Positions 2,114 to 48,041 of a DNA stretch of 59,578 nucleotides are shown piece by piece; within the stretch, counting starts at the first letter, position 1, and every line of letters begins with the position of its first letter. Below the pieces are notes generated by a model. It ran no database searches. It was not told where the DNA came from and saw only the letters and a program-made list of their open reading frames with translations. The stretch is from Patescibacteria group bacterium (GTDB taxonomy: Bacteria; Patescibacteriota; Gracilibacteria; UBA1369), in contig JAHJEW010000051.1 in the NCBI GenBank assembly GCA_018825335.1, forward strand, positions 1 through 59,578. The letters are read 5' to 3'. Both the position numbers and the translations under genes were made by a program.

Positions 2114-2205
2114 ATTGTAATTTTACTTTTTATCCTGTTTGCCACAAGAGATGGTGATACTTCCATGCAAAAAATGCGGTGAAAATTATAAAATCATCAA
2201 ATAAA

Positions 2206-4515: not shown

Positions 4516-4853
4516 TAAACAACAAAGAAAATCTGTTCGCGCACCTGCGCCATTGTGTCTTTATCAAGGGCGGAAACAAACTTCTTTAGCCTTTTTTTAT
4601 CTATCGTCCTAAGCTGAAACAAAAGCGCAACACTATCGAACGGAAGAAGAGACTCTTTTTTTGAAATAAAACAGGTAGTCAGATGACCCATCGCCTTTAG
4701 ATTTTTTGTAAGCGGAGCAACCACCACTGTACTCAGATGCCTGTTTAGCATATTTTTTTGTAGAATAAGAACGGGCCTATAGCCACCCTGCTCATGCCCC
4801 ATTATCGGGTTAAGATCGGCAAAATAAATATGTCCCTGTTGAATTTCAGTCAT
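4515..4853 (-). CDS. mazF: MazF/PemK-family endoribonuclease toxin (start refined to internal Met)
   Basis: MTEIQQGHIYFADLNPIMGHEQGGYRPVLILQ matches the PemK/MazF N-terminal signature. It overlaps the upstream RHH ORF by 8 nt. ATG confirmed as cat at 4851-4853. Confidence 0.7.
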   Translation of the reverse strand: MTEIQQGHIYFADLNPIMGHEQGGYRPVLILQKNMLNRHLSTVVVAPLTKNLKAMGHLTTCFISKKESLLPFDSVALLFQLRTIDKKRLKKFVSALDKDTMAQVREQIFFVV

Positions 4854-5088
4854 TGGAGTTTGTTTCAGATTGGATGGAAAGCCAGTCGTCTTCCGAAGGC
4901 AGGTCATCGAATTGCATTGCTGCAAGCTCCATTACTTCTTCTTCAAGTTGATGTTGCAGATAATCTTTCAAAGCATTTTCCACCAGAGCGCTCTTGCTTT
5001 TGCCCGTTTTCTTACTGATTTTTTCAAGCAAAATATTCACAGTGGGAATAATTGTAATTGAAATTCTGGTTTTGATATTTTTTGCCAT
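4846..5088 (-). CDS. ribbon-helix-helix (CopG-like) antitoxin paired with MazF
   Basis: 80 aa. The N-terminal TRISITIIPTVNILLEKISKKTGKSKSALVENALKDYL segment fits a beta-strand plus two-helix RHH pattern, followed by an acidic C-terminal tail. It is in the canonical position upstream of the toxin. Confidence 0.6.
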   Translation of the reverse strand: MAKNIKTRISITIIPTVNILLEKISKKTGKSKSALVENALKDYLQHQLEEEVMELAAMQFDDLPSEDDWLSIQSETNSND

Positions 5089-5199
5089 AGTATTACAATA
5101 AAGTATTACTAAATAATCATACTATGGATTACTCAACATATCAAGCACGTTTACAATCTACATTGTAATTATTAAGCGATAATAAATTTTTTCTAAATT

Positions 5200-6483
5200 C
5201 TACTCATTCATCCTTTTAGCAATACTATCCCCCGCAAGTTTCCCGCAGGCCCAAGAAGCCTGCAGATTAAAGCCGCCGGTAAAGCCGTCTATGTCCAGAA
5301 TCTCGCCGGCAAAAAATAGTCCCGGGCACAGTTTTGATTCCATTGAATGAGAGTGAACTTCGCTTAGATCAACGCCGCCCGCGGTAACAAACTCACTGCC
5401 TGCACCTCTGCCAACAATCTGAATCTTGAAATGCTGCAGCATATCAACAATCTTTTTCCGCTGCTCTTTGCTGATTCCCGCCGCCTGTAAGTCCGGATTA
5501 AACTTCAAAATCCCAACAAAAACATCACAAAAAGATTTCGGTAACAATAAGTCCAACAAATTCACCAGACGTTTTTTGCCATGTCCTGCCCCCAGCTTTT
5601 GAAAACGTTTTTCCAAATCTTCCGCGGTCTCATCCGGGAAAAAATTAATCGTCAGAACCATGGGCTTTTCTTTTCCAAACGATTCATAAGCCGCCATTGC
5701 CGAAACAGCAAAAACCGCCGGCCCCGAAACCCCGCCATGCGTAATAACCATCGCCCCCGTGCGCTCAAAAAAACGCTTCCCGTCAAACGAAGCAAGCGTC
5801 AGGCCGGCTTTTGCAAAAGAAACCCCGGCAACGGAGGCAAGCCATTTATCAAATACAATAAGAGAACTCAAAGAAGGCGCAAGTTTGGTAATGGTGTGCC
5901 CAAGACTTTTCGCAAAAGCATAACCGTCTCCGGTAGACCCGGTGTGCCTGTATGCGTTTCCGCCTGTGGTAATAACAACAAAATCAGCCTCATATTTTTT
6001 CACGTCGCCGTCAGAGACACCACAATCCGCCGCCTTTGCTTCAATCAAAAAAACGCCATTCTCTTTTCGCACGGATTTAACATCCGCCCCAAACAAAATC
6101 CGTATGCCCTTCGCGCGCAAATCCTTTTCCAGGGCGCAGACCACATCTTTGCCATTATTCGAAACCGGAAAAGCCCTCAAATCTTCCTCTATCTTCATGC
6201 GCACACCGTGATCCTCGAACCACTCAATAACCTTATCCGGCGGAAACCTGAACATCGCCGACATCAAAAACTTTGCGCCGCGCGGATAATTCTCCAGCAA
6301 CCTATCAACATCAAAAATCCCCGACGTAACATTGCAGCGCCCCCCACCCGAAATAATCACTTTCGCCCCAAGATAAGCATTTTTCTCAAAAAGCGTCACC
6401 TCGCAGCCGGGCTCACCGACCGCCGCGGCGCTTGCAGCCATCATTCCCGCAGCGCCTCCTCCAATAATCGCAACCCTTTTCAT
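5200..6483 (-). CDS. HI0933/BaiN-like FAD-dependent flavoprotein (NAD(P)/FAD oxidoreductase)
   Basis: 427 aa. N-terminal Rossmann motif VAIIGGGAAGMMAA, then GGGRCNVT and a C-terminal GEILDIDGFTGGFNLQ motif typical of the HI0933 family. Confidence 0.8.
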   Translation of the reverse strand: MKRVAIIGGGAAGMMAASAAAVGEPGCEVTLFEKNAYLGAKVIISGGGRCNVTSGIFDVDRLLENYPRGAKFLMSAMFRFPPDKVIEWFEDHGVRMKIEEDLRAFPVSNNGKDVVCALEKDLRAKGIRILFGADVKSVRKENGVFLIEAKAADCGVSDGDVKKYEADFVVITTGGNAYRHTGSTGDGYAFAKSLGHTITKLAPSLSSLIVFDKWLASVAGVSFAKAGLTLASFDGKRFFERTGAMVITHGGVSGPAVFAVSAMAAYESFGKEKPMVLTINFFPDETAEDLEKRFQKLGAGHGKKRLVNLLDLLLPKSFCDVFVGILKFNPDLQAAGISKEQRKKIVDMLQHFKIQIVGRGAGSEFVTAGGVDLSEVHSHSMESKLCPGLFFAGEILDIDGFTGGFNLQASWACGKLAGDSIAKRMNE

Positions 6484-6492
6484 AAAAGAAAA

Positions 6493-8103
6493 TTAAACCA
6501 GTGATTTTTCGTATTCAGATTCCGTCACAATATTTTTCTTTTCCGGATGCTCAAAAAAAACAGAGACCTTTTCATCACCCACCAAAATCTCTTTGGGAGT
6601 AAAACTTGTATCCATTATTTCCATGCGCTGTTTGTATCTAAGAACCGGACTGACCCTTGGTAACGCAATAAAGTGCTTTTTATAATAATCCAGTTCCTGG
6701 CTTAAATACTTAAACTTCTTCCCTGAAATAATGCAGCTTTGTACCGATCCGGACTGTTCGCCATTCGTAGCCCCAGCACCGACCTCACACTCCCTTCCAA
6801 AATAATCCGACTCCTTATCATCAAAAAGATCAAAAGCAATCGTGTCTTCATACGGAAACGGACTTAAAGACATTGGGAAAAACTTTCCATATTCACCTCT
6901 TTTACGCATTAAATCACGCAAAACAGCGGTCCGTTCAATATATTCCTCCTTGGAATATGGCTTGTTAAAAATATGATACTGCTTATTTTTCAGCCCGATG
7001 CACCCAAAACAATTACTACTGTTCAGACATAAATAACAATATTCCATGAATGAACTATGCCACACAAAAGCGCAATTCTTCACTTCATAAGAAGCAATGC
7101 CCGTTGCCACGCACTGAAAACAATTTTCCACTCTATCGTTGCACATAAAAGAACCAACCATGTCTTTCGCCATGGCGCACTGAAAATTATTATATGCATC
7201 TTTCATGTCAAAACTTTCGAAACACCGCAGAGTACTGGCCGAATTACGCAGATAATTGCCGCTGGCGTTTTCACAATTATCCATTATTGCGTACGACATG
7301 GGAGCGCGAGCCACAATCTTTTCCCGGAACTCTTTCTTCATCTCTAAAACTTTTGAATAATCGCGAAAATCAATGTCCAGCATAAATTTCCCATACTGCT
7401 CCTTGGTCAGTTGCTCATTATTTACGCAATATTGCTTATTCCGCAGGTTTGAGCACATAAAAGAGTTCTGAACATTCCGGCAATTATACGAAAAAGCCGA
7501 ATCCGAAACCTGCCTGCAATTAAAGGAAAAACGGACATTATAGCAATTGAATAAATAGACGCTGTCATAAATCAGCTCGGAGTCCATAATCCAGTAAACG
7601 TCAACGCAATCACGGGAATTATATATCCTGGTCGAGTAATAAACGTCCCGACAATTAAGCGCGTCAAAAACAAGATAGCAGTTCTTCAAGCCTTCGCAGT
7701 CATGGCAATATTCCGCATTTTCCTGAAGATTGGAAAGCAGGGACACCACCGGCGCCCTCTTTTGAAGTTCCTTGAATTGCTCGAAAAACGGCTTGTTAAA
7801 ATCAATTTCAAGGAAAGGTGAGGACCAGTCGTCGCTGTACCATTCATCATGACTAAAAACTGGACAAAGAGCATTTTCGCTATAAACGGAAACGATTTTC
7901 TTTCCACTCTTGCTTGAAGTCCGTTCGTAAAGACGTTTGTTGGGATACCATGCCATAACCTGTCTCATACTTTCATTGGGGTCGATTTTGGCAAGATCAA
8001 CGCCAAATTTATCAGATAAATAAGCGAGTAAATTTTGCATACACCAAGTATACCCAATAATGGGCACACCCGTAGTAGAGCGGGCACCCAAAACACTGGA
8101 CAA
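6493..8103 (-). CDS. Cys-rich family paralog, copy 3 (divergent; both terminal zinc-ribbon modules have lost their Cys ligands)
   Basis: It retains EWYSDDW, IDFNKPFFEQFKELQKRAPV, the central CxxC-type repeats, GLKNKQYHIFNKPYSKEEY and GEYGKFFP..SPFPYE, but the ends lack CxxC pairs. An alternative start is the Met at 8040 (MQNLLAYL). Confidence 0.8.
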   Translation of the reverse strand: MSSVLGARSTTGVPIIGYTWCMQNLLAYLSDKFGVDLAKIDPNESMRQVMAWYPNKRLYERTSSKSGKKIVSVYSENALCPVFSHDEWYSDDWSSPFLEIDFNKPFFEQFKELQKRAPVVSLLSNLQENAEYCHDCEGLKNCYLVFDALNCRDVYYSTRIYNSRDCVDVYWIMDSELIYDSVYLFNCYNVRFSFNCRQVSDSAFSYNCRNVQNSFMCSNLRNKQYCVNNEQLTKEQYGKFMLDIDFRDYSKVLEMKKEFREKIVARAPMSYAIMDNCENASGNYLRNSASTLRCFESFDMKDAYNNFQCAMAKDMVGSFMCNDRVENCFQCVATGIASYEVKNCAFVWHSSFMEYCYLCLNSSNCFGCIGLKNKQYHIFNKPYSKEEYIERTAVLRDLMRKRGEYGKFFPMSLSPFPYEDTIAFDLFDDKESDYFGRECEVGAGATNGEQSGSVQSCIISGKKFKYLSQELDYYKKHFIALPRVSPVLRYKQRMEIMDTSFTPKEILVGDEKVSVFFEHPEKKNIVTESEYEKSLV

Positions 8104-8154
8104 ATAAAGAAAAAAGTGTTATAAATACACCCAATATTGCCATATAAAGATTGG

Positions 8155-10197
8155 ATGCCAAAAAATACACCGAAACAAGAACAATCCGGAATCTTAAAAG
8201 ACGCCAAAATGCCGCTGCAGCTATGCCGTGGAACCGTCCATAAAATCAACGGCAAAAAAGTCGAAAACTGCTGGGGAAAGCCAATACCGGAAGGCAACTC
8301 CGGCGCGCTGTATATTGGAAAAACGATTATCGAACCAATTTCCACCAGAATAAGAGCGGTTCTAACGGGCAAAGAACCAGGCCCGCAAAACATTTATTCG
8401 GAGGAATTCATTCAAAGCGCGCTGGAAAACCTGGGGCCGCATTTAAGAATTGGAAATAAAATTTGCATTGTGCAGGCGCGTTGTCTTAGCGAAATTTTCA
8501 ACGGCCCCACGGACACGGAAAACGCCCTTACAATAGAGCGGCAACGTGATTTTATCCGGAAAATTGCGAAAAAAATCGGCATAAAAGAGGAGCAACTGGA
8601 ATTTATAGATCTGGAAGATCAGGTGCGCCACTCCCAGCTTTTTTTGGCTGTAAGGATGTCAATAGATCCGGCAACGGGAAAATTTGATCCTGAAATGGCT
8701 TTTGGCGCAGACAGGGACGAGGATGAAAAAAATGAACCGTTCAGATGGCCGGAATCCGTTTCTCTGGACATCGCCAAATGCCTTTATGAAGCATACAAAG
8801 CCCATCCGGAGTTTGCGGACCTGTTCAGGGAAACAATTCCTAAAGGTCTGGCGGGCGACCGGGAAGATCAAAGCGATCAGCAAAACTACTATTCCCTTGT
8901 GGAAATCGCATGCAGAATTGCGGATCTAAAACACGGAACAAGCTTTCAATGCGGCGCCGGCAGGCAGGCGCGCTACGATAAAATCATTGAGGATCTTCGG
9001 AGAGGGGAAAAAGGACAATTCAAAAAATACCGCGAATTGAAGCCAATATTTGATCTATTAAAAGGAGCCACATTTCAAACATTGCACTTCTTCACGGATG
9101 CCGATTACAGAGGAAAAAAACTGCGCAGAACCAGGGCGCGAACCAAAATAGCCGCCATGGCCGCCATTGGTTTAACCACCCTTGGCACGGCTGCATTCCA
9201 CTCATGCACGTCAGAAATGAGGCAGAGGGAAGAGCAGGAACAACTAATGGAGGAAAAAATCCGGGAGGGAACCAGGCATATAAGATTCAGATTCGAAGGT
9301 TTTTTCATGGATGAACAGGAAAATGTAAAAATGACTTTATCGATTGCAAATTCGGTTCTGGGTAGATTGAAGGAACGCTATCAGATGGGCATATTCATGA
9401 ATAGCGAGCTTAAACCTCTGGTGATAGAGTTTCTTCTGGCAAGCACCGGTCTGTTGCAGCAGGCAAATCAGGACGCGGGAGTGGTAAACGAACTGGCCGA
9501 TCTTTTTGTAAAAAAACATTCACTGTTTCTGGCCCAAAAAGGATTGAATACGACGCAACCTTTCGCCAATTTTACGCCGTACATGGACAAAATCAAAGAA
9601 GCTGCGGTCGGCATGGACGATTTTCAGCTCAATACAATTCTTGCCTCACCCAACCCGGGTAATTTCGACGACGTTGAATCAGTAAACGATCTACATCTAA
9701 AAAAAATCGGAAAATTCACACCATCGGTTCAGTACGGATGGACGCAAACTTTATATATATACGAAAAAAACGGGGAAACCCACATCCTGGGCCGCGACAT
9801 GAGTAAAGAAGATCCAAAAACGGTGGACAGGGTTTTTACGGCTAAAGAAGGGCGCGAGCTGGCACAACAATTCCTTAGCGGATTGCGCAAATACGACACT
9901 CTGCAGATAGCCGACTTAAGGTCGACTCTTTCCAACATGTGCTATAACAAATACAACCCCGGACCAAAAGAAAAAAGTGAGCCGGCCGAATCAAATCCGT
10001 ACAGCCCGTACACGTTTCATTACAAAGATTCACTCGGCGAGTTTGATTATTACCTGCGGCAATCTTACTTCATGGACAAAACAATCAATCACTCCATAGA
10101 CATTATACTTGCGCGCCGCCCCGGAGAGTCGCAATATACATACGAAACAGGCATGGAAGTCGCCCGAAAATACTGTAATATCATGAAATACAGATGA
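8155..10197 (+). CDS. hypothetical ~680-aa protein with one central TM segment
   Basis: Long uninterrupted ORF. The track start at 8137 is TTG and the first ATG is at 8155. A hydrophobic segment IAAMAAIGLTTLGTAAF lies mid-protein and a Glu/Gln-rich segment follows it. The stop overlaps the ATG of the TrmB-like gene (ATGA at 10194-10197). No recognisable catalytic motif. Confidence 0.7.
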   Translation: MPKNTPKQEQSGILKDAKMPLQLCRGTVHKINGKKVENCWGKPIPEGNSGALYIGKTIIEPISTRIRAVLTGKEPGPQNIYSEEFIQSALENLGPHLRIGNKICIVQARCLSEIFNGPTDTENALTIERQRDFIRKIAKKIGIKEEQLEFIDLEDQVRHSQLFLAVRMSIDPATGKFDPEMAFGADRDEDEKNEPFRWPESVSLDIAKCLYEAYKAHPEFADLFRETIPKGLAGDREDQSDQQNYYSLVEIACRIADLKHGTSFQCGAGRQARYDKIIEDLRRGEKGQFKKYRELKPIFDLLKGATFQTLHFFTDADYRGKKLRRTRARTKIAAMAAIGLTTLGTAAFHSCTSEMRQREEQEQLMEEKIREGTRHIRFRFEGFFMDEQENVKMTLSIANSVLGRLKERYQMGIFMNSELKPLVIEFLLASTGLLQQANQDAGVVNELADLFVKKHSLFLAQKGLNTTQPFANFTPYMDKIKEAAVGMDDFQLNTILASPNPGNFDDVESVNDLHLKKIGKFTPSVQYGWTQTLYIYEKNGETHILGRDMSKEDPKTVDRVFTAKEGRELAQQFLSGLRKYDTLQIADLRSTLSNMCYNKYNPGPKEKSEPAESNPYSPYTFHYKDSLGEFDYYLRQSYFMDKTINHSIDIILARRPGESQYTYETGMEVARKYCNIMKYR

Positions 10198-38542: not shown

Positions 38543-41500
38543 TTATTCGTGCACCGTTAATATTTGACCGGCTGATCTGCCAAAAACTTCCGGGAAATAA
38601 AGTTCCTGTGCAAGCACCGGAAGATCATGGAACACTCCCGGGGTTGTGGCTCTAATATAATATTCAATTTCATAAACACCTTTCGGCAAAAAATCCGCAA
38701 AATACATCATGCGGTCATCGCGCACTTCCGAATAATTAAAATACCAGGAGCTGTCAAAGAACATGTTGCGCCTTTCCTCCTGTTGCAGAGATTGTTGCGA
38801 TGTATTCAGTCCAAAATCAATGCCCTCAAGGCCCGCCGGCAGAAAATCTTCCACCATCACATAATATCGATCCTCGGGCACCACAAGCGTAATCCTGGCC
38901 TTCAGATTATCCCCCAGTTTAACTGTGGAAAGAGGAATCTCCATTTTCTTGTCATCGGCAGTAAAATACTCATGAGTCACAACGATTCCCTCGTTGCGCG
39001 GCTCAACCTTCTCGGTCGGCAGATAATATTTCATATTGATATCCGCATACATTTTGCCGGATCCTTCCTTGGAGAAAACAACCTCATTATCCTGATTGTC
39101 GGACATTAGTTCCGAGAGAGGAATAACCAATGATTCCATGTCCGTAAGATTTTCCTTATTGAAAACCTTGCTGATTTTTTCCGTTCCGTTAACAGTCACG
39201 GTAGCGTCATAATCCGCATCCAGCTCACCGCTGGTCTTTAAATAATCAATCATGGCAATTAATGAAACCGCTGTTTCCTGTGTAGTCGAAAAGTGTCCGT
39301 CTTTCTTTTCAAGCAATAAGTTTCTCAGAATCTTGGGAATATACGGATTGTTGGAATCAACGTGGGTCAACATTTGCAGCACCAGAGCGGTTGTACGCGT
39401 ATTTGTATCGAAGAACTGCCAGATGTTATAGGACTCCTCAAAGTGCACCCCGCGCGGAGTTTCCTTGGCCAGATTAAGGATTTCATTTTTAAGATTCGTA
39501 ACTTTATCCTCGTTGCCGCCAAGAGAATCGTATGTCATTACCAGATAAGCTTTGGCAAAAATGTTCAAAACATCTTTGTATGAATAAAGATTATTGGTCA
39601 AAGCAAGATCCCCGTGACCAAGCTCGGCAAGCACAAAGAGAGCATAAGCTCGCGCATTCGCCTGATAGCGACTTTCACTATATGGCTTTATGCCTTCTTC
39701 CTTCGCAAGCTCATGTGAATTCATGTAAGACGTCAAATATTCAATGCCATGATTAATCACATTTTCATCAACGGAAAAACCGGCCTTTTTAGTCTCATTA
39801 AGAGTGTAAAGAACATAAGCCGTCAAATAAGGCGTCGGCTCACTGGTCTGCCAGATTCCCCATCCGCCATTACCATTCTGGAATTTATAAAGCAGCTGTA
39901 ATCCGGCCTGAACATTCTTTTCAAGCTCCTTTTTATCAACAAGATCGTCATCGATAATTGGCAGATCAAGAAGCTGAGAAAGAATAACATTTGGCAGTAG
40001 TGCGCTCGTGGTTTGCTCAACGCAGCCATAAGGAAACATCATTAAATATTCAAGTCCCTTGGAAATAGATCCGCTTAAAGTCGGGGCTATACTTACGCCA
40101 AGTTCACCGAAATTAACATCTGTTCCAAGCGGTAACCAGATAGTTTCAACGTGCTTAGCATTGTCGGAAATGGTCTGTGCCGTTGCCACAATTTCCGGAA
40201 AACTGAAAGGATAAATAGGCAGCTTTTGCTCCAAAATATCACCAATCTGAACATCAAATGTTGACTGAACATCAAATGTTAAAACCGCCTCCTGCCGGTT
40301 TATAACTTCAATATTCCACTCAACTTTTTTTTCCTCTCCCGATTTCAACGTAATGCGTTTTTTTACATCATCTTTAATGTTCACACCATCGGCCTGTAAG
40401 GAAACAATAAAATCCATGTCGCGATCCAGATAATTATGAACAATACCGCCAATCTTCATGGTGTCATTCATAATCAAAAATCGCGGCAATACGGGGCGTA
40501 CCAGCACATCTTTTGTAACAAGAAATTCATGTTTCTTGCTGCCAACTAACGTGTCATCGGTAATGCCAATGGCCAGTATTTCCCAAGTGGTAAGATTATC
40601 CGGAAGTTCAAAAGTAGCCTCTCCATTACCACTTGCATCGGTTTCTATAGTGGCCTCCCAGTACGCTGTATCCTTGAAAATGCCGCGTTTCTGGCGGTCG
40701 GCACCACCTCCGCCTTTAAGTCCGGCTTCAACCATTATATTCACGCGTGATAAAGCTTTTGTAAGCGTATGCGCGGTAGAAACGCCAAGCATACGTATTC
40801 GATAAAACTCATTCAATAAATCCGCGGTAACATTTTCAGTTAAAGAAAGCACACTTTTATCAACAACACTTATTGACACTTCGGCAGGTGCAGGCGCCCC
40901 CGATTGATTGGTTGTTTTAATTTTTACCGTGACTTTTTCCCGCGGCTTATATTTGTCTTTATCGGTAGTAACATCAATCTGCAGTTGCTTGGACTTATTA
41001 TCAACCTGCAACGTTGTATAGCCGATCTTAAACGCAGCAACGTTTCTTTCGTCATTTGCACCAAGTGGCGGCTCTTCCAGGCCGGCTGCGTCATTGCTGC
41101 CTTTAACCAGAACAACTGAAACAAAAACATTTGGAATGGACGCATCTGTAATCGGAACATCAATCGTTTCTGAATTGGATGAAATCTTCACAACGCGGGT
41201 ATCAAGGATTGAATTTCTTTCCTGTGTTACCAGGGCCCAGACATTTTCATAAGGCGATTTAACAAGGATTTTGGCCGTATCGCCGGACTTATATTCCGGC
41301 TTATCCGCAACCAGCTCAATTCTGTCATTGTTTTCAAGTCCCCAGTTCACAAATCCGGAAGTTGAAACATAGACCGAAGTCGCCGCGGTCACTCCGTGCC
41401 CGCGGCTATCCGTGGAAGTAACCACGGCTCTGAAATCGCCGCCGTCTTTTGGTGTGAACTCAATCGCGGCAAACCCTTTATCATTTGTAGTAAGGGATTT

Positions 41501-44500
41501 AGTTTCAACCAAAGTGTCTTCAAAACTGTTCTCGTAATAGAAACCGCCATCCACATTCTTCTTCTTTATAGTATTCCATTTCCTCTTATACAAAGCCACA
41601 TCGGCCTTTTTGCCGGCCAAAGGCATACCGATATAATCAACACTTATCACTTCTAACTTGGCCGGTTTACCCTGCTGCACTACATAATCATCATTCATGA
41701 TACCCATGTAATATTCCCCCTGATGAACGGGCAATATCAATCGATTGGAAACGGTTTGATTATTCAAATCATGAGCCGTAACCTCCACCGTATACAATTG
41801 GCTGATTTTTTTATCATTAAGATTAAAAGGCAGCTCCAAAGTATACTCACCGTTTTCATTCAGCTTCGCTTTCCCGGAAGAAACCACTTCATTGTCACCC
41901 TCACATCCCCAGAAACACAAATACCCTTCATCGGAGAAGCTGAACCATTTGGAAGCATAAATGCTCACCGAATCAAACGGAATAAAAAAGAAATAGTCCT
42001 GGCGCGTTACAGTCCAATCGATGTCGGCATTGGGCATTGGTGAGCCAAAAAAGAAAGCTCCTTTTACATCAAGCCTGGCGGTATCGCCATCGACATAATT
42101 GTCTTTATCACCTTCCAAAGTTAACTCATAGTCGGGCTTTCTGTATTCGGCAATACGGAAAGATGTATAAAAAGAGTTCAAATACTCCGGCCCGGAAGCT
42201 CCTATCAAAGTGGAGGAAATTGAGTATGAACCCGTACGCGCATTGTCGCTTAATTTAAGCTCGCCGTTATACGTTCCGTTTGAATTTAGATTCAGATCTT
42301 TTTCGTACACATTGTCCCCCTGACTGTCGGTAACAATCACATGTACGTTTTTCAGATCGGGAAGATTGAACTTTGCATCCAAATCACGCCTTACAAGCCC
42401 TTTAAAATAAACCGTATGACCGGGTCTGTATATTGGCCTGTCCGTATAAGAATAAATAAAATAATGGCTTACTTCCGGGCTAAAATCTATATTGAAATTC
42501 CACGGGGCTATGCCTTCGCTCCAGCTTGAATGAGCCAGCGTAAAATTGCCGTTGCCGCGGCCAAAAACCGTATACTCTTTATAATAATAATCACCAGGTC
42601 CATTATTGGGGAAAGCAAAAGAGGCAAGCCCATCTTTATCGGTCTTACCGGAAAAAATCTCTTCCCCGCTATTATCCAGCACGGAAATATTCAGATCCGC
42701 CATGGGGCTTCCGTCTGCAATGCCGGTCGCCCAAACCAGCAGTTTGTCCGGAGCTCTCTTAACCGCCAGTGAAACTGATGTAACAACAAAAACCTGATGC
42801 TCAACTCTTTGACGGCCGTAATAATCAACCACGCCGGGGCTCCTCAAATCAAAATAATAAATTCCCGGCTCCAGATTGTGCCCAAGCTCTTTCGCCAAAT
42901 CAATCTGAGTATGAATTGATTGATTAAACTTATTTTCAACTCGTTTGGACCAGCCCGCGAATGGCCCTTTAACTGATTCCACGGCGCCATAATTAAGATA
43001 GCCATCTGCGTACAAATCCCTGAACTCCTCATCCGATAGTTTTTTGAACCTGAAATCAAGAGTATCCGTGTTTACAGACTTAACATAATAGATAGGAGGC
43101 TTGTTAACATCCAAAATACTTATATCGCCCCCCTGAAAAAGCTGAAAATTAGGATCCAGTGCGGGAGTTTTAAATGAATATTCAAAATCGGATTCAAGTT
43201 TTTGACCGAACTGGTCCGGCTGACCTGATCTAATACCTACTTTATAGTCGGTTGAAGCATCAAAAGCATATTGAATCGAAAGAACCGTTCCGTTGCCGGA
43301 AAAACTCACGGACGGCTTAATTTTCTCGCCGATATCTTTATCGACTTTTTCAGGTGTAATCCAGACTTTATCCTCAATTCCCTCACTATCCATGGGATGA
43401 CTGAAAACGATTTCGGCCCAATAAAAACCGCCGGAATATTTTTTACCGGTATCCGGATTTATTTTCATTCCCATATCAACCCCGTTTTCCGGCGTGGTGG
43501 AAACGATACTGACTTCGCCAACAGTTTTAAACGCAACAGCCGCGGATTTAGGAAGCGTAAAAGTGCCTTCCTCTCCGCCAAAAGACACATCCACCGTAGC
43601 CAGATATAAAGATTTATAACCCAATTTTTGAGCCGGGGTAAGAATCAAAGACTTTTTCAGGTCTTCGGGACTCTTTTCTTCGTCATTAAAATTCCAATAA
43701 TCATAATCGGTAGGCTCACTTTTAATGTCCTCCTGCTTTAAATATTCCACCTTAAAGGTGATTTCTTTCCAGTCATTTCCGGGAGCAGTTTGTCCCAAAG
43801 CCTCACTGCCGGAAGAAAGCATATTATCAATATCTCCGGTTCCCTCATATTTATATAAATGGATTTTATTATTGGCATCGCCAAGTTTCATGGGCTGATT
43901 AAAATCAAGCCTGATCTTTGTATCAGGGCCGTTATAAATGCTTCCATCATAAGGAATAGTTCCAATAAGCTCCGGCTTTTGTGTTACGAATGAAAAAGAA
44001 AAATCCTGGTCCGTCGTGCCGCCGTCGGCCGCCGCGGTGCCTTTTGGAATCGTTACCTTATATTCCGTAGCGTAAAGCAGCTTTTCCGGGATAAAACTTA
44101 TTGAATCTGTCCCAAGCCATTTATATTTCCCGTTCAGGGGCGGATTAAAAATCATCTTGGGGGCGGAGGCAACACCTTCATCCAGGCTTTTAAGCGCAGT
44201 CATGGGACGATCAAATAGAACCGTAATCTTCGCATCATTGGCAATATTCTCCGAATCCGGCGCCGGATTATACAAAAGCACCTGCGGCGGCCCGATAATT
44301 TCAAAAGTTTCCTCATAATCGAACTCCATTTGCTTCTGAAACAAACTCTTGGCCTCTTTTCCTATAAAAACATCATAGCGATCACCTACGTTGAACGGAT
44401 TTTTTGGATAGAAAAGCAGTGAATTGCCGGACCAGGAAATTTTTCCGGCAACAGAAGGCTCCACATGAAAAGCCCTTTCAACCGATCCGTGATCCATCGG

Positions 44501-44902
44501 CTGACTAAATACCACCTTAATAGGTGCATTGTAAGAAACAAGCCGAACATTTTCCTTCAAAGAATAACCAATAACCTGAGGTGCCGGAATTAAAGGATAA
44601 CTCACTACCCCGGAAATAAGCACAATCAACAATACCGCCACTGCATATGACCATCCGCCGAACGGAACTTTAAAGTAGGAGCTAAGAGAGACTTCTTTTG
44701 TGGTCTGATGAGCGGCTTTGATCTTTTTTGGCATGGTCTTGTGTTTAAGGAGTAATTGTTGGCGAAGTTTTTTCTGGAAAACGGGGCTCGGTGAATCTGG
44801 AGCCAATTTTTCTATGCTTTTAACGATATTATTCAGCTCAATTGGCGTCTTGCCATCAAGGTCTTTCATGAATTCCCTAATTTTCTTCTTATTAAAAAAC
44901 AT
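38543..44902 (-). CDS. bacterial alpha-2-macroglobulin family protein with thioester motif, membrane-anchored by an N-terminal TM helix
   Basis: 2119 aa. The thioester motif PYGCVEQ is encoded at 40013-40024 (CVEQ). N-terminal Ig-like (SbsA-type) repeats are followed by MG-like domains. The first ~85 aa are hydrophilic, then comes the TM segment WSYAVAVLLIVLISGVV. Confidence 0.9.
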   Translation of the reverse strand: MFFNKKKIREFMKDLDGKTPIELNNIVKSIEKLAPDSPSPVFQKKLRQQLLLKHKTMPKKIKAAHQTTKEVSLSSYFKVPFGGWSYAVAVLLIVLISGVVSYPLIPAPQVIGYSLKENVRLVSYNAPIKVVFSQPMDHGSVERAFHVEPSVAGKISWSGNSLLFYPKNPFNVGDRYDVFIGKEAKSLFQKQMEFDYEETFEIIGPPQVLLYNPAPDSENIANDAKITVLFDRPMTALKSLDEGVASAPKMIFNPPLNGKYKWLGTDSISFIPEKLLYATEYKVTIPKGTAAADGGTTDQDFSFSFVTQKPELIGTIPYDGSIYNGPDTKIRLDFNQPMKLGDANNKIHLYKYEGTGDIDNMLSSGSEALGQTAPGNDWKEITFKVEYLKQEDIKSEPTDYDYWNFNDEEKSPEDLKKSLILTPAQKLGYKSLYLATVDVSFGGEEGTFTLPKSAAVAFKTVGEVSIVSTTPENGVDMGMKINPDTGKKYSGGFYWAEIVFSHPMDSEGIEDKVWITPEKVDKDIGEKIKPSVSFSGNGTVLSIQYAFDASTDYKVGIRSGQPDQFGQKLESDFEYSFKTPALDPNFQLFQGGDISILDVNKPPIYYVKSVNTDTLDFRFKKLSDEEFRDLYADGYLNYGAVESVKGPFAGWSKRVENKFNQSIHTQIDLAKELGHNLEPGIYYFDLRSPGVVDYYGRQRVEHQVFVVTSVSLAVKRAPDKLLVWATGIADGSPMADLNISVLDNSGEEIFSGKTDKDGLASFAFPNNGPGDYYYKEYTVFGRGNGNFTLAHSSWSEGIAPWNFNIDFSPEVSHYFIYSYTDRPIYRPGHTVYFKGLVRRDLDAKFNLPDLKNVHVIVTDSQGDNVYEKDLNLNSNGTYNGELKLSDNARTGSYSISSTLIGASGPEYLNSFYTSFRIAEYRKPDYELTLEGDKDNYVDGDTARLDVKGAFFFGSPMPNADIDWTVTRQDYFFFIPFDSVSIYASKWFSFSDEGYLCFWGCEGDNEVVSSGKAKLNENGEYTLELPFNLNDKKISQLYTVEVTAHDLNNQTVSNRLILPVHQGEYYMGIMNDDYVVQQGKPAKLEVISVDYIGMPLAGKKADVALYKRKWNTIKKKNVDGGFYYENSFEDTLVETKSLTTNDKGFAAIEFTPKDGGDFRAVVTSTDSRGHGVTAATSVYVSTSGFVNWGLENNDRIELVADKPEYKSGDTAKILVKSPYENVWALVTQERNSILDTRVVKISSNSETIDVPITDASIPNVFVSVVLVKGSNDAAGLEEPPLGANDERNVAAFKIGYTTLQVDNKSKQLQIDVTTDKDKYKPREKVTVKIKTTNQSGAPAPAEVSISVVDKSVLSLTENVTADLLNEFYRIRMLGVSTAHTLTKALSRVNIMVEAGLKGGGGADRQKRGIFKDTAYWEATIETDASGNGEATFELPDNLTTWEILAIGITDDTLVGSKKHEFLVTKDVLVRPVLPRFLIMNDTMKIGGIVHNYLDRDMDFIVSLQADGVNIKDDVKKRITLKSGEEKKVEWNIEVINRQEAVLTFDVQSTFDVQIGDILEQKLPIYPFSFPEIVATAQTISDNAKHVETIWLPLGTDVNFGELGVSIAPTLSGSISKGLEYLMMFPYGCVEQTTSALLPNVILSQLLDLPIIDDDLVDKKELEKNVQAGLQLLYKFQNGNGGWGIWQTSEPTPYLTAYVLYTLNETKKAGFSVDENVINHGIEYLTSYMNSHELAKEEGIKPYSESRYQANARAYALFVLAELGHGDLALTNNLYSYKDVLNIFAKAYLVMTYDSLGGNEDKVTNLKNEILNLAKETPRGVHFEESYNIWQFFDTNTRTTALVLQMLTHVDSNNPYIPKILRNLLLEKKDGHFSTTQETAVSLIAMIDYLKTSGELDADYDATVTVNGTEKISKVFNKENLTDMESLVIPLSELMSDNQDNEVVFSKEGSGKMYADINMKYYLPTEKVEPRNEGIVVTHEYFTADDKKMEIPLSTVKLGDNLKARITLVVPEDRYYVMVEDFLPAGLEGIDFGLNTSQQSLQQEERRNMFFDSSWYFNYSEVRDDRMMYFADFLPKGVYEIEYYIRATTPGVFHDLPVLAQELYFPEVFGRSAGQILTVHE

Positions 44903-44911
44903 GGGGAAAAG

Positions 44912-45460
44912 TTAAGCAAAATATGATAGTTCAGGCTTAATCCTCCTAAGTGCCCTGTAAAGAATAACGGCAACATTGCTTTCCGAAAGCCCTGTAACGG
45001 CAACTATTTCACGATTTGTCATTTGCGCAAAAAACTTCAAGTGAACAACATTTAGATCCCTTTCAGGTAAATCCTTCAAAACTTCCCTGACTTTTTGGGC
45101 AAGCTCATTCTCGGCGGCTTTCTTATGGGGGGAGATTTCCTTATTATCCGCTACCAGCCTGCCTTCATCTAGCTCCGAAGTCTTCTTTCTGTTACTTTTG
45201 GAAAAAAAATTATTTATGGAATTGCGGGCAATCGTAAAAAGCCAGGCGGCAAAAGGAATATTGCGCCACTCGAAACCATCTATATGCTCAAGAGCTTTCA
45301 TAAACACCTCGCTTACAATATCTTCACTGTCCGCCTGATCTCTGACTTTCATCAGAGTGTACGCATAAATCTTGGGAAAATAGTAATCATAAAGCTTCCC
45401 GAAACTCTCACCATGAGTTTTGGCATCTTCCACCAGCTGTTTTTCCTCCTGTAAGTCCAT
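44912..45460 (-). CDS. ECF-type RNA polymerase sigma-70 family factor
   Basis: 182 aa. The region 2 pattern is DSEDIVSEVFMKALEHI..F..WLFTIARN. The region 4 HTH is MTNREIVAVTGLSESNVAVILYRALRRIK. Confidence 0.85.
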   Translation of the reverse strand: MDLQEEKQLVEDAKTHGESFGKLYDYYFPKIYAYTLMKVRDQADSEDIVSEVFMKALEHIDGFEWRNIPFAAWLFTIARNSINNFFSKSNRKKTSELDEGRLVADNKEISPHKKAAENELAQKVREVLKDLPERDLNVVHLKFFAQMTNREIVAVTGLSESNVAVILYRALRRIKPELSYFA

Positions 45461-45539
45461 ATAATAATGTATCGAAAAGCACTTACCAGTCAGCTTAGTA
45501 TATTTTATAGATAGTACAACAGAATATTTTCCAAAAGTA

Positions 45540-48041
45540 TTACAAAATCGAAAAAGAGACGGTCGGGCTTTTAATCAACGTACCATTTTCCAATTCTGTT
45601 TCCGCGTAAAAAGAATGAATACCTTTTTGGGGTAGCCAAAGATAGGTGTATGGAACTTTATTTTGTGTACCCACCTGTACATTATCAATATAAAAATTCA
45701 CCTTTAAGGTGGATTTGGGAGGAGTCACCCGAAGCGGTACCTTTTGATCCTCCGGTGGCAGTAGATTACTCAAAATGAACTCGTCATTATTGGCGGGGGA
45801 ATCAACTATAATAAGATTGGACTGTTCATCCGTATAGCCGTTTGCATAGGTGGATGAATAATCCGATGATGCTGCACAGGTGGCGAAATGCGGCAGTGCA
45901 AGCCCCTTGGAGGTCGCCCATTTCTGTAATTCCGGTGGATAGGCCACGAGCACTTTTTGCTCCAAAGACAAAGGATTATATTGATTCTTGCATTGATCCG
46001 GAATAATACTGCCGGAATTTTTATCAACAGTAAAAAGTTGATAATAATCATCGGTTTCTTTGGGTAGGTTATCAGAGGAGAAAAATTCGTATAGTCGTTC
46101 CTTGCAATATTCGGTGGGTAGCTTGCCGGATAAGGCGCAAATCTCTTTTTGAACAATACCGTCCGGCACCTGGAAATCCACTTTTGGTGAGGTGGCTAGC
46201 GCAGCCCCCATGAAATCCGCCCAGATTGGGGCCGCCCCGTCTATGCCGGAAACATTTTCCATGGGACTTGCATCCGCATTGCCTACCCAAACCGCCGTTA
46301 ATAGCTGCGGCGAAAAACCTATTGTCCAGTTATCTTTAAAATTACGGGTGGTACCTGTTTTTACGGCTGCCGGATGCGATATTTCCAGTACGCCGCCTTC
46401 CCCGAAGCCGGGTATGCGCGCAAGCGGATCTTTTAAAATATCAATTACTAAATATGAATTTTCTTTCCCATGCGGCCCGAGAACATAGGAGGAAACAGGC
46501 TTTGTCCAGGAATAAAGCTCAGTTCCATCCGACGTTTCCACTTTTGAAATAGTTGAATAGTCAAATTTAAAGCCATAATTGGCCAGAACATTATATGCCT
46601 GCGCCATATCAATTAGCCGCACTTCTCCGCCGCCCAGCGTAAGCGCCAGACCATAATGCCCGGCAGATTCTGTTAACGTGGCAATACCAAGATCCTTAAG
46701 AAAAGCAATGAAATTGCCCACCCCAACAAAGTCCAGCGTCTTTACCGCCGGAATATTAAAAGAGCTTGCAAGGGCCGTTCTTACCCGCACCGGACCATGA
46801 TAATCCAGGTCGTAATTCTTGGGAGAATACGGTCCCGTTTCCGTGGAGAACTGGGTGGGGATATCATAAATAATTGTTGCGGGATTATAACCTTTTTCAA
46901 AAGCCAATAAATAAGTTAACGGCTTAATGGAAGATCCCGGCTGGCGCAGAGCTGTTCCCATATCCACAGCTCCGTCAATCGAATCATCAAAATAATTGGC
47001 GCTGCCCACCCATGCCAGGATTTGCCCCGTTTTTACATCCATGGATATTAATGATCCGTTCGTAACATTATGCCGGTCAAGAAGGGCAATATGCCGATCA
47101 ATCGTTCTTTCCGCCAATTGCTGAAGATTATAATCAAGAGTGGTAACGACATTTAAGCCGCCTCTGTGAACCAGTTCCTCTCCATAAAGATCCTCCAGTT
47201 GAGTTAATACATGGTGCACAAAATGAGGAGCTTTAATGGGATACCTGTTTGCCTGAAGATCAATAGCCTCCGCAGATGCAGAGTCCGCATCCGCCTGAAC
47301 CAGAAATTTTTGCTTAACCATCTGATCCAAAACATACTTTTGCCGATTTTTGGCTTGCGAAAAAGCAGTATATGGATCGTAAAGCGAGGGTGACTGAGGC
47401 AAACCGGCAATAAAGGTTATTTGAGCCAGATCCAGATCGTAAACATGCCTTCCAAAATAGTTTTGCGCAGCCGCTTCAACCCCATAAGAAAGATTCCCAA
47501 AATAAATTTTATTCAAATAAAGCTCTAAAATCTCATCTTTTGAATAAAAGTTACTTAGACGCACGGCATAAATGGCTTCCATGGCCTTATCCCAAATATT
47601 TTTATTCGGACGCCCAAGCATATTTCTGAACAGCTGTTGGGTAATCGTACTGGCACCGCTGACTATCCGTCCCTCGCGCACATTAAAGAAAACAGCCCTT
47701 CCTATAGCCAGAATATCAACTCCAGGGTGTGAATAAAAATTAATATCCTCCGCCGCCAGAGTGGCATCAATCAGACTTTGCGGCATTTTTTCAAGCGGAA
47801 TAAAAGTCTTGCGCCCCGACTCCGGAAGAAGAACCTCGTAAAGCAAAACACCATTGCGATCAAAGATCTTTGTCGTGGCAATATTCCGGGTATCCGCGAA
47901 CGGATCGGGCAAAGGCAGGAAATAGGCGATATACAAATAAAAAGAACAGATCAAAGCAACCAGACAAAACAAAACAGCCATCATCCAAAACCAAACCGGA
48001 TGCAGGGCTGCCCATTTTCTTATTTCCAGAACTGATACCAT
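45540..48041 (-). CDS. pbpC: bifunctional class A penicillin-binding protein, PBP1C-like (glycosyltransferase plus transpeptidase plus C-terminal beta-domain)
   Basis: GT51 motifs AAEDINFYSHPGVD and GASTITQQ. Transpeptidase motifs SSIK, SFN and KTGTT. The C-terminal ~90 aa resemble the PBP1C C-terminal domain. N-terminal TM anchor. Confidence 0.85.
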   Translation of the reverse strand: MVSVLEIRKWAALHPVWFWMMAVLFCLVALICSFYLYIAYFLPLPDPFADTRNIATTKIFDRNGVLLYEVLLPESGRKTFIPLEKMPQSLIDATLAAEDINFYSHPGVDILAIGRAVFFNVREGRIVSGASTITQQLFRNMLGRPNKNIWDKAMEAIYAVRLSNFYSKDEILELYLNKIYFGNLSYGVEAAAQNYFGRHVYDLDLAQITFIAGLPQSPSLYDPYTAFSQAKNRQKYVLDQMVKQKFLVQADADSASAEAIDLQANRYPIKAPHFVHHVLTQLEDLYGEELVHRGGLNVVTTLDYNLQQLAERTIDRHIALLDRHNVTNGSLISMDVKTGQILAWVGSANYFDDSIDGAVDMGTALRQPGSSIKPLTYLLAFEKGYNPATIIYDIPTQFSTETGPYSPKNYDLDYHGPVRVRTALASSFNIPAVKTLDFVGVGNFIAFLKDLGIATLTESAGHYGLALTLGGGEVRLIDMAQAYNVLANYGFKFDYSTISKVETSDGTELYSWTKPVSSYVLGPHGKENSYLVIDILKDPLARIPGFGEGGVLEISHPAAVKTGTTRNFKDNWTIGFSPQLLTAVWVGNADASPMENVSGIDGAAPIWADFMGAALATSPKVDFQVPDGIVQKEICALSGKLPTEYCKERLYEFFSSDNLPKETDDYYQLFTVDKNSGSIIPDQCKNQYNPLSLEQKVLVAYPPELQKWATSKGLALPHFATCAASSDYSSTYANGYTDEQSNLIIVDSPANNDEFILSNLLPPEDQKVPLRVTPPKSTLKVNFYIDNVQVGTQNKVPYTYLWLPQKGIHSFYAETELENGTLIKSPTVSFSIL

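What the first reader, a model, noticed from the sequence alone, without database searches (positions are those of the whole stretch)
38543..45460. ECF sigma factor directly followed by an alpha-2-macroglobulin whose N-terminus has anti-sigma-like topology
The ECF sigma gene ends 9 nt before the A2M start. Anti-sigma factors are usually encoded in exactly this position. They are single-pass membrane proteins with a short cytoplasmic N-terminal domain. The A2M begins with about 85 hydrophilic residues (MFFNKKKIREFMKDLDGKTPIELNNIVKSIEKL..QKKLRQQLLLKHK), then one TM helix, then about 2000 extracytoplasmic residues that include the thioester. No separate anti-sigma ORF is visible. The hypothesis is a fused anti-sigma and protease trap, in which bait cleavage or thioester firing by an attacking protease is signalled to the sigma factor. 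I know of no described example. The N-terminal segment lacks the HxxxCxxC zinc motif, so any anti-sigma domain would be a non-zinc type.
Basis: inference. Interest (0 to 1): 0.6.

Follow-up and report, generated by a model that had tools for sequence, protein, structure and literature searches.

The report
Protease trap doubling as anti-sigma factor
In this uncultivated small-genome (CPR/Peregrinibacteria) bacterium, a giant membrane-anchored protease trap (alpha-2-macroglobulin) carries a short inner tail that is kept or lost together with the sigma factor gene next to it, so the trap itself very probably holds that gene switch in check; no paper in the library searched describes this design.

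Summary
On the minus strand lie pbpC (45540-48041), an ECF sigma gene (44912-45460) and, 9 nt later, a 2119-aa thioester A2M (38543-44902). The A2M has a basic tail of about 83 residues, one TM segment and a complete ectodomain with GCVEQ.

The anti-sigma reading is well supported by comparative evidence:
- The tail forms three predicted helices and is as conserved as the ectodomain (41% against 17% for the linker).
- All 16 assessable relatives with the orthologous sigma have the tail.
- All six sigma-less A2M orthologues lack it, through at least four separate events. One keeps only helix 3, after a roughly 700-bp deletion.
- The helix-3 motif F-x3-L-[RK]-x2-L recurs in single-pass partners of BldN-like sigmas in other phyla, with unrelated ectodomains.
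- A conserved ECF-type promoter (TGTAATAC-N16-GTT) precedes every orthologous sigma gene.
- The closest solved sigma is BldN, whose anti-sigma RsbN also has three helices.

No known anti-sigma family matches by sequence or fold. My fused-chain AlphaFold test was inconclusive. The protease-sensing step is untested.

I found no paper on this. Earlier notes of this scan describe the same arrangement on other genomes. I class it as a new variant of a known kind.

The parts
45540..48041 (-). pbpC-type class A penicillin-binding protein (PBP1C), 833 aa. It is the usual genomic partner of bacterial A2M.
   Evidence: Transgly plus Transpeptidase domains. TIGR02073 PBP_1c scores 509.5 bits against a cut-off of 494.2.
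45513..45544 (-). Candidate autoregulated ECF-type promoter. The -35-like TGTAATAC is at 45537-45544, followed by a 16-nt spacer and the -10-like GTTGTACT at 45513-45520. The pbpC stop codon TAA (45540-45542) lies inside the -35 element.
   Evidence: T(T)TGTAATA[CG]-N15-16-GTT lies upstream of the sigma gene in all 16 loci L001-L016, but not in L017. It is absent upstream of the A2M in 5 of 6 sigma-less loci. It is the only clean intergenic copy in the genome. Function is inferred, not shown.
44912..45460 (-). ECF sigma factor, 182 aa, BldN-like
   Evidence: Sigma70_r2 and r4_2. The best NCBIfam hit is TIGR02952 (BldN family), at 131 bits and below its cut-off of 206. The closest solved chain is 6dxo_A, BldN, at E 2e-18; the next best is 1e-9.
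44903..44911 (-). 9-nt spacer between the sigma stop and the A2M start. The two ORFs are in the same frame.
   Evidence: The shared frame looks like chance: 5 of 16 orthologous loci with a readable downstream start are also in frame, one of them with a further TGA in the gap.
44732..44902 (-). Cytoplasmic three-helix tail of the A2M (residues 1-57), the candidate anti-sigma module. Helix 1 is about residues 5-16 (44855-44890), helix 2 about 21-33 (44804-44842) and helix 3 about 40-56 (44735-44785). Helix 3 carries F42, L46, R47 and L50.
   Evidence: AF2 predicts the helices. F42 and L46 are invariant and L15 and L50 nearly so. Mean pairwise identity is 41%, equal to the ectodomain. The tail is present only where sigma is present.
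44654..44731 (-). Basic, poorly conserved linker (residues 58-83)
   Evidence: 17% mean pairwise identity. AF2 pLDDT is about 50.
44594..44653 (-). Single transmembrane segment (about residues 84-103), followed by the conserved YPLIPAPQV.GY start of the ectodomain
   Evidence: It is the only hydrophobic segment in 2119 residues.
38543..44593 (-). Extracytoplasmic A2M body: Big_5 x3, bMG3, MG2, bMG6, bait-region domain (residues 1195-1354, nt 40841-41320), A2M, thioester domain and bMG10
   Evidence: Pfam.
40013..40027 (-). Thioester motif GCVEQ (residues 1626-1630)
   Evidence: GCxEQ is kept in all 21 homologues P0003-P0023.

Best explanation
The first ~57 residues of the A2M form a three-helix cytoplasmic module. 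This module binds and sequesters the BldN-like ECF sigma encoded just upstream, so the membrane-anchored protease trap is itself the anti-sigma factor. Sigma and A2M are transcribed together from a sigma-dependent promoter (TGTAATAC-N16-GTT) that starts at the pbpC stop codon.

When the A2M is removed from the membrane, sigma is freed and drives more sigma and A2M. Removal would most plausibly follow damage or consumption of its ectodomain and then intramembrane cleavage by the genome's RseP-type site-2 protease. In relatives, sigma probably also drives a few lipoprotein genes.

Shown here:
- the gene layout and the single-pass topology;
- conservation of the tail;
- strict co-occurrence of tail, sigma and promoter;
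- recurrence of the helix-3 motif on other sigma partners.

Inferred:
- physical binding and inhibition of sigma;
- promoter function;
- the release route;
- the signal.
For: 1. Position and topology match a single-pass anti-sigma factor. The gap is 9 nt, the tail is N-in and basic, and there is one TM segment.
2. The tail is under selection. Helices 1-3 show 41% mean identity, equal to the ectodomain, against 17% for the linker. F42 and L46 are invariant.
3. Co-occurrence is complete. All 16 assessable genomes with the orthologous sigma have a tail on the adjacent A2M. In L017 it is divergent: the A4 profile did not detect it and I read it by eye.
4. Six same-family genomes have an orthologous A2M but no sigma. 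Five of these have only a 10-40-residue unrelated tail, and one keeps helix 3 only.
5. On the A2M tree the sigma-less forms are scattered, and well-supported branches force at least 4 changes. All 4 independent pairs go the same way.
6. Within one genus there is a before-and-after pair. G042 has dnaJ, promoter, sigma and an A2M with the full tail. G013 lacks a ~700-bp block holding sigma and the first ~44 A2M codons.
7. The module is portable. BldN-like sigmas of Dormibacterota, Chloroflexi, Dehalococcoidia and other Patescibacteria are followed by single-pass proteins. These carry F-x3-L-[RK]-x2-L at about residue 40 and 20-35 residues before the TM. Their ectodomains are unrelated: Big_5, PD40 and DUF3160. 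The other ECF pair in this genome (contig C65) has a FecR and DUF5667 partner, but I did not scan it for the motif.
8. Other Patescibacteria sigma partners are A2M-like too.
9. The closest solved sigma is BldN from the RsbN-BldN complex. RsbN is a three-helix anti-sigma with a long helix 3 that carries an invariant Arg and a Leu three residues later (PMC6101532). Here the corresponding residues would be R47 and L50.
10. AF2 gives three helices, with helix 3 at pLDDT 95-98 in the sigma-tail chain and pTM 0.81. The modelled sigma matches the compact anti-sigma-bound forms: CnrH TM 0.72, SigW 0.65, and EcfG-type RpoE with NepR 0.65. It does not match holoenzyme forms, which give rmsd ~25 A.
11. 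A conserved promoter motif lies upstream of sigma in 16 of 16 loci L001-L016. It is absent from sigma-less loci except the recent deletion G013.
12. No match over the curated cut-off to zf-HC2, and no match to RskA_C or RseA_N, exists in the genome. The tail profile has one copy.
13. An RseP-type site-2 protease with an HEWGH motif is present.
Against: - No sequence or fold match links the tail to any known anti-sigma domain. Pfam and NCBIfam found no anti-sigma family. The profile against PDB sequences gave only chance-level hits and no RsbN. Foldseek with the tail alone gave 0 hits.
- The AlphaFold surrogate is weak. The same helices are predicted without sigma, at pLDDT 68-94 against 79-98. 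No PAE or coordinates were available, so no contact is shown.
- The modelled sigma arrangement does not match BldN in 6dxo (TM 0.52).
- The tail lies next to the sigma gene, so one deletion can remove both, as in G013. Part of the co-loss may therefore be mechanical.
- The independent-pairs test has only 4 pairs (p 0.125).
- Generic promoter and terminator scans are at chance level.
- There is no experiment of any kind.
Confidence: 0.75

Rival explanations
1. The tail is a cytoplasmic accessory of the A2M anchor with no role in sigma control, for example in membrane insertion, localisation or turnover. Under this reading sigma merely activates the operon and is regulated some other way. The joint loss reflects single deletions that take out two adjacent pieces of DNA.
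For: G013 shows exactly such a single ~700-bp deletion spanning sigma and the first 44 A2M codons. No anti-sigma family match was found. AF2 predicts the helices with or without sigma. The sign test is underpowered.
Against: - A tail with its own function should survive in at least some of the 4 or more independent sigma losses. None keeps it whole, and in five lineages even helix 3 is gone.
- The same helix-3 motif is found on non-A2M partners of related sigmas in several phyla, always directly after the sigma gene. A deletion artefact cannot explain that.
- No other regulator of the sigma is detectable.
Confidence: 0.12
2. The tail does bind sigma, but protease attack on the trap is not the signal. 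The A2M would be only a convenient membrane anchor. Sigma would be released by generic envelope stress or constitutive turnover, so the loop simply matches sigma level to A2M level.
For: Nothing in the data connects the bait region or thioester to release. The same tail type sits on ectodomains with no protease-trap function, such as DUF3160, PD40 and Big_5. For RsbN itself the signal is unknown (PMC6101532).
Against: Ectodomains of single-pass anti-sigma factors are usually the sensing part (established knowledge: RsiV and lysozyme, RsgI and polysaccharides). Sigma-A2M pairs of two distinct types occur here: the thioester type of this window, and a Hint-bearing type in L037 and L039. Further Patescibacteria also have A2M-like sigma partners. 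This repeated pairing suggests that it is selected for.
Confidence: 0.35
3. A separate anti-sigma protein of an unrecognised family, encoded elsewhere, controls this sigma.
For: CPR genomes are full of unannotated small proteins. The genome is in 134 contigs and about 96% complete.
Against: No candidate was found. There is no ORF between or beside the pair. The other two ECF sigma types in this lineage also have their tail-bearing partner directly downstream.
Confidence: 0.04

Closest known systems
RsbN-BldN of Streptomyces venezuelae (class III anti-sigma domain; PDB 6DXO; PMC6101532)
   Same: - The partner sigma is the nearest solved relative of this sigma.
- The anti-sigma is a single-pass membrane protein with an N-terminal cytoplasmic domain of three helices joined by flexible linkers.
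- Helix 3 is long and carries a conserved basic residue with a Leu three residues later.
- There is a large extracytoplasmic domain, and the gene lies next to the sigma gene.
   Different: - No detectable sequence similarity to RsbN.
- The ectodomain is a 2000-residue thioester A2M rather than a 270-residue domain of unknown function.
- The modelled sigma2/sigma4 arrangement resembles CnrH/CnrY more than 6dxo.
- The authors found RsbN homologues only in Streptomyces.
Ligand-sensing single-pass anti-sigma factors released by regulated intramembrane proteolysis (RsiV-SigV with lysozyme, RsiP-SigP with beta-lactams via PbpP, RseA-SigE, RsgI-SigI)
   Same: The operon layout and topology are the same. 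The ectodomain acts as the presumed sensor, a site-2 protease is present in the genome, and the loop is autoregulatory.
   Different: Those use class I or SigI-type anti-sigma domains. None has an A2M ectodomain. Here the sensor would also be the effector that the sigma induces. Release by proteolysis is inferred, not shown.
Bacterial thioester alpha-2-macroglobulins linked to pbpC (E. coli ECAM/YfhM, Salmonella A2M); from my own knowledge of the literature
   Same: It has MG domains, a bait-region domain, a thioester domain with CxEQ, MG10, and a pbpC neighbour.
   Different: The anchor is an N-terminal TM helix with a cytoplasmic tail rather than a lipoprotein anchor. Three Big_5 domains sit at the N-terminus. 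An ECF sigma gene and its promoter are inserted between pbpC and the A2M.

Membership tests
Bacterial thioester A2M (ECAM/YfhM type) | MG domains, bait-region domain, A2M domain, thioester domain and C-terminal MG10 | tested here: met
   All are over the Pfam cut-offs.
Bacterial thioester A2M (ECAM/YfhM type) | CxEQ thioester motif | tested here: met
   GCVEQ at residues 1626-1630, conserved as GCxEQ in 21 of 21 homologues.
Bacterial thioester A2M (ECAM/YfhM type) | Lipoprotein signal peptide anchor | tested here: not met
   There is no lipobox. Instead there is an 83-residue basic tail and one TM segment.
Bacterial thioester A2M (ECAM/YfhM type) | Linkage to pbpC | tested here: met
   PBP1C (TIGR02073, over its cut-off) lies directly upstream, separated only by the sigma gene.
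ECF (group 4) sigma-70 factors | Only the sigma2 and sigma4 domains, about 180 aa | tested here: met
   Sigma70_r2 plus r4_2. TIGR02937 scores 97 bits against a cut-off of 43.
BldN family (TIGR02952) | Score over the curated equivalog cut-off | tested here: not met
   131 bits against 206. It is the best-scoring model, and BldN is the closest solved chain. The sigma is therefore BldN-like, not a BldN equivalog.
Class I anti-sigma domain / zf-HC2 (ZAS) | HxxxCxxC zinc motif or a match to the zf-HC2, RseA_N or RskA models | tested here: not met
   There is no Cys or His motif in residues 1-83. Pfam found no hit at E up to 10.
Class III anti-sigma domain (RsbN) | Three helices with flexible linkers and a long helix 3 | tested here: met
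   AF2 predicts H3-16, H21-33 and H40-55 for the tail alone, and the same helices in the fusion.
Class III anti-sigma domain (RsbN) | Sequence homology to RsbN | tested here: not met
   The profile of 26 tails against all PDB sequences did not hit the RsbN chain at E up to 10.
Class III anti-sigma domain (RsbN) | Conserved Arg and Leu (+3) on helix 3 contacting sigma2 | tested here: inconclusive
   L-[RK]-x-x-L is nearly invariant. Without an alignment to RsbN or a complex model, equivalence to R67/L70 cannot be shown.
Class III anti-sigma domain (RsbN) | Helix 3 clamped between sigma2 and sigma4, with helices 1-2 on sigma4 | not testable with these tools
   Only single-chain AF2 without PAE or coordinates was available. 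pLDDT rises just 4-11 points when sigma is present.
Membrane anti-sigma factor (operational definition) | Encoded directly after, and inherited with, its ECF sigma; N-in single-pass topology | tested here: met
Membrane anti-sigma factor (operational definition) | Binds and inhibits the sigma | not testable with these tools
   This needs a two-hybrid, pull-down or reporter assay, or a true multimer prediction.
RIP-controlled anti-sigma factors | Site-2 protease available | tested here: met
   A Peptidase_M50 protein with HEWGH and a PDZ-like middle lies on contig C14, and a second M50 protein on C114.
RIP-controlled anti-sigma factors | Signal-dependent site-1 cleavage of the ectodomain | not testable with these tools
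   No data.

The most novel reading that the evidence does not exclude
The A2M is both sensor and effector of a protease-sensing transcription switch. Attack by a foreign protease would cleave the bait, fire the thioester, or lead to clearance of the spent trap. That would lead to intramembrane cleavage of the anchor and free the BldN-like sigma. The sigma would then re-make the trap and induce envelope lipoproteins. This would be a self-replenishing, innate-immunity-like defence circuit in CPR bacteria. As a corollary, the F-x3-L-R-x2-L three-helix tail would be the widespread form of the RsbN-type (class III) anti-sigma domain, which has so far been reported only from Streptomyces.
Probability: 0.35. 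Interest if true: 0.8.

Novelty: new variant of a known kind. Interest (0 to 1): 0.6.

Why it matters
Bacterial A2Ms are regarded as passive periplasmic protease traps. Nothing is known about how cells sense that the trap is being used.

A trap whose own cytoplasmic tail holds a sigma factor would give a direct route from extracellular protease attack to transcription. It would be a new sensor type for ECF signalling and a rare regulatory circuit readable in CPR bacteria.

It also suggests that RsbN-like three-helix anti-sigma domains are far more widespread than Streptomyces. This would help annotate many 'orphan' BldN-like ECF sigmas in Patescibacteria, Chloroflexi and Dormibacterota.

The pair is small enough (182 aa plus about 110 aa) to test in E. 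coli.

Tried and rejected
- Pfam and NCBIfam on residues 1-132 and 1-83 at E up to 10 gave no anti-sigma family. There was only a chance-level HpsJ-like hit.
- A profile of 26 tails against PDB sequences gave only chance hits such as trigger factor and Piwi.
- Foldseek with the tail-alone model gave 0 hits.
- The fused-chain AF2 run read the TAA between the in-frame ORFs as Gln, as a stand-in for a co-fold. It gave a confident model, but the tool returns neither PAE nor coordinates. The tail-alone control showed that the helices are predicted anyway, so I do not count it as evidence of binding.
- The shared reading frame of sigma and A2M is no more frequent in orthologues than chance, so I rejected a read-through fusion protein.
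- A tail profile searched against 1.84 billion representative proteins gave only 11 hits. They were the same ~2100-2200-aa A2Ms, fragments, and two odd repeat proteins. The narrow profile does not reach the wider family.
- Generic sigma-70 promoter and terminator scans were at shuffle level.
- A genome-wide search for further copies of the promoter in the window's own genome was not enriched over a reversed-pattern control, at 9 against 9.
- The ECF re-classification paper (PMC7826278) does not mention macroglobulin or CPR groups, and none of its supplements is held.
Full report
**Observation**

The window is contig C46 of a 1.15-Mb, 134-contig, ~96%-complete genome. Its closest public relatives are MAGs labelled Candidatus Peregrinibacteria, Peribacteria or Gracilibacteria.

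On the minus strand lie three genes:
- a PBP1C-type penicillin-binding protein (45540-48041; TIGR02073 over its cut-off);
- an ECF sigma factor (44912-45460, 182 aa; Sigma70_r2 plus r4_2);
- after the stop TAA and 9 nt, a 2119-aa alpha-2-macroglobulin (38543-44902).

The A2M has three Big_5 domains, then bMG3, MG2, bMG6, the bait-region domain, the A2M domain, the thioester domain and bMG10. The thioester motif GCVEQ is at residues 1626-1630.

Hydropathy shows a single hydrophobic segment, with its peak at residues 87-105. The 83 residues before it carry 18 K/R against 7 D/E, which fits N-in topology. The tail has no HxxxCxxC motif.

The public gene call starts at Met12 (P0003). The first 11 residues are conserved as protein in orthologues while Met12 is not. 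The long start is therefore right.

**Direct family searches**

Residues 1-132 and 1-83 hit no Pfam family, even at E 10. The only NCBIfam hit is at chance level. A profile of 26 such tails hits no anti-sigma chain among PDB sequences. The tail-alone model has no Foldseek match. By sequence or fold, the tail belongs to no described anti-sigma family.

**Conservation and co-inheritance**

The sigma has clear orthologues (44-69% identity) in 16 of 40 related genomes. After that there is a gap to paralogues at 37% or less. In every orthologous locus with a readable downstream region, the next gene is an A2M. Its start reads MFFxKKKIRxL..LD..K.P.DL..VV.AIE...P....P.FQK.LR.QLL.KH, followed by a variable basic linker, a TM segment and YPLIPAPQV.GY. 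The most distant locus, L017, has a longer, divergent tail that still carries an IRQML-type helix.

Mean pairwise identity is 41% for residues 1-57. That equals the first 300 ectodomain residues, against 17% for the linker. F42 and L46 are invariant; L15 and L50 are nearly so.

Six genomes of the same family have an orthologous A2M but no orthologous sigma. In these, pbpC or dnaJ abuts the A2M gene.
- Five of them (L031, L032, L033, L035, L036) have only a 10-40-residue unrelated tail before the TM.
- The sixth (L034, G013) keeps only SVFQTKFKKILLSQHKTM, which is helix 3.
- A frame-independent profile search confirms that the tail is not found in the sigma-less genomes.

On a tree of the ectodomain the sigma-less forms are scattered, and well-supported branches force at least four changes. 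All four independent pairs change together. With so few pairs the sign test cannot go below p 0.125.

A congener of G013, G042, has dnaJ, the promoter, sigma and an A2M with the full tail. Alignment shows that G013 lacks a ~700-bp block holding sigma and the first ~44 A2M codons. One related genome (G031) has a truncated sigma with stop codons yet still carries the tail.

No orthologue keeps sigma without the tail. The genome has no match over the curated cut-off to zf-HC2 and no match to RskA_C or RseA_N.

**The module is portable**

More distant BldN-like sigmas from Dormibacterota, Chloroflexi, Dehalococcoidia and other Patescibacteria are followed by single-pass proteins. Their cytoplasmic starts align with this tail. 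They share F-x3-L-[RK]-x2-L at about residue 40 and 20-35 residues before the TM. Their ectodomains differ: Big_5, PD40 propeller and DUF3160.

This genome's other assessable ECF sigma (contig C65) is likewise followed by a 651-aa single-pass protein with FecR and DUF5667 domains. I did not test that protein for the motif. The third ECF sigma (C74) sits at a contig end, but its orthologues have a KYFE...FK..LR..LL partner.

Several partners in other Patescibacteria are again A2M-like. A conserved N-terminal module on varied ectodomains, always directly after a related sigma, is the signature of an anti-sigma domain.

**Link to RsbN**

The nearest solved sigma is BldN in the RsbN-BldN complex (6dxo_A, E 2e-18; next best 1e-9). 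The best NCBIfam model is the BldN family, though below its cut-off.

RsbN is a single-pass protein whose 91-residue cytoplasmic domain has three helices joined by flexible linkers. Its helix 3 is clamped between sigma2 and sigma4 and carries a fully conserved Arg67 and an anchoring Leu70. The authors found homologues only in Streptomyces (PMC6101532).

AlphaFold predicts three helices for the tail here (residues 3-16, 21-33, 40-55), and helix 3 carries L46-R47-x-x-L50. This is a resemblance in design and in partner, not demonstrated homology.

**Co-fold surrogate**

The two ORFs happen to be in frame. I therefore folded the read-through chain, with TAA read as Gln, using an alignment of paired and unpaired rows. 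The model has pTM 0.81, and helix 3 reaches pLDDT 95-98.

The sigma part matches anti-sigma-bound compact forms: CnrH TM 0.72, SigW 0.65, and EcfG-type RpoE with NepR 0.65. It does not match holoenzyme forms, which give rmsd ~25 A.

The tail alone gives the same helices, with pLDDT only 4-11 points lower. Neither PAE nor coordinates are returned. I count this test as compatible but inconclusive.

**Promoter**

Upstream of the sigma gene, loci L001-L016 all carry T(T)TGTAATA[CG], a 15-16-nt spacer, then GTT. L017 does not. In the window the motif is at 45513-45544, and the pbpC stop codon lies inside the -35-like element. It is the only clean intergenic copy in this genome.

It is absent upstream of the A2M in the sigma-less loci, except in the fresh deletion G013.

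In five relatives the bare pattern is no commoner than a reversed control. However, the four copies that share the T-rich extension of the sigma promoters all lie 56-67 nt upstream of lipoprotein genes. Those genes are unrelated to each other and are not found in this genome. A weaker candidate in this genome lies before a 399-aa lipoprotein gene on contig C129.

The sigma thus probably autoregulates the sigma-A2M pair and, in relatives, a few envelope lipoproteins. This is inferred from conservation only.

**Mechanism**

Most likely (0.75), the tail sequesters the sigma at the membrane. How sigma is released is unknown. The genome has an RseP-type site-2 protease with an HEWGH motif, split at a contig end, so regulated intramembrane proteolysis is available.

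It is attractive because the sigma's main output is the trap itself, which would give consumption-coupled resupply. Nothing I could run bears on it, and I put it at about 0.35.

The main caveat on the comparative evidence is that tail and sigma are physically adjacent, so one deletion can remove both. The loss of even helix 3 in the older sigma-less lineages argues against a purely mechanical explanation. So does the recurrence of the motif on non-A2M partners in other phyla.

**Novelty**

Full-text searches for macroglobulin together with anti-sigma or ECF terms found only incidental co-mentions. The ECF re-classification paper does not mention macroglobulin.

Earlier notes of this scan describe sigma-A2M pairs in many other genomes. 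Two on related Peregrinibacteria reached the same reading. I saw those only after I had read the RsbN paper, run the first fold and built the tree. They are AI notes, not independent evidence.

I class this as a new variant of a known kind: a single-pass anti-sigma factor whose sensor domain is a full thioester A2M, with an RsbN-like but unrecognised anti-sigma module.

Noticed in passing
L034 (G013) against L130 (G042): Within one genus, one genome has dnaJ, promoter, sigma and an A2M with the full tail. The other lacks a ~700-bp block (sigma plus the first ~44 A2M codons) but keeps the promoter motif and helix 3. This looks like a fresh deletion caught in the act.
   Followed up: yes
L037 (G012) 173-5647 and L039 (G038) 4047-9323: A second, thioester-poor type of sigma-coupled A2M-like protein in the same family and order carries a Hint/intein-like domain (PT-HINT, Vint) between the bait-region and A2M domains. 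The window's A2M has no such insert.
   Followed up: partly
P0031 (339 aa) and P0032 (244 aa): These are soluble proteins without a TM segment. They are built of three tandem copies of the helix 2 and helix 3 unit (...DPELTALAAHLDATAP...DPAFRKALRGKLLD). They might be multi-site sigma binders or decoys.
   Followed up: no
L126-L129 (G016, G020, G019) and own genome C129:3867 (-): Copies of the extended promoter motif TGTAATACTTTT...GTT lie 56-67 nt upstream of lipoprotein genes in relatives. Those genes are unrelated to each other and have no Pfam family. In the window's genome, a weaker TGTAATAG copy precedes a 399-aa lipoprotein gene just after a tRNA-like 3' end. These are possible extra regulon members.
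   Followed up: partly
window 45537-45544: The pbpC stop codon TAA (45540-45542) lies inside the -35-like element TGTAATAC of the sigma promoter.
   Followed up: yes
window 44870-44902: The public gene call for the A2M starts at Met12 (after an AGGGA Shine-Dalgarno-like stretch). This cuts off most of predicted helix 1. Protein-level conservation supports the upstream ATG at 44902.
   Followed up: yes
own genome C65:12227-14778 (-): A second ECF sigma is followed by a 651-aa single-pass protein with a ~105-residue cytoplasmic start and FecR plus DUF5667 ectodomains. The third ECF sigma (C74:26579-27097) is cut by the contig end.
   Followed up: partly
L041 (G031 C12) and L043 (G018 C5): Some relatives have an additional ~1760-1790-aa A2M with a cleavable signal peptide and SLH-like N-terminal repeats, and no sigma neighbour. 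L044 (G005) has a lipoprotein-type A2M.
   Followed up: no
own genome C14:21071 to the contig end, and C104:3428-3772: The RseP-type site-2 protease gene (HEWGH, PDZ-like middle) appears to be split across two contig ends.
   Followed up: partly
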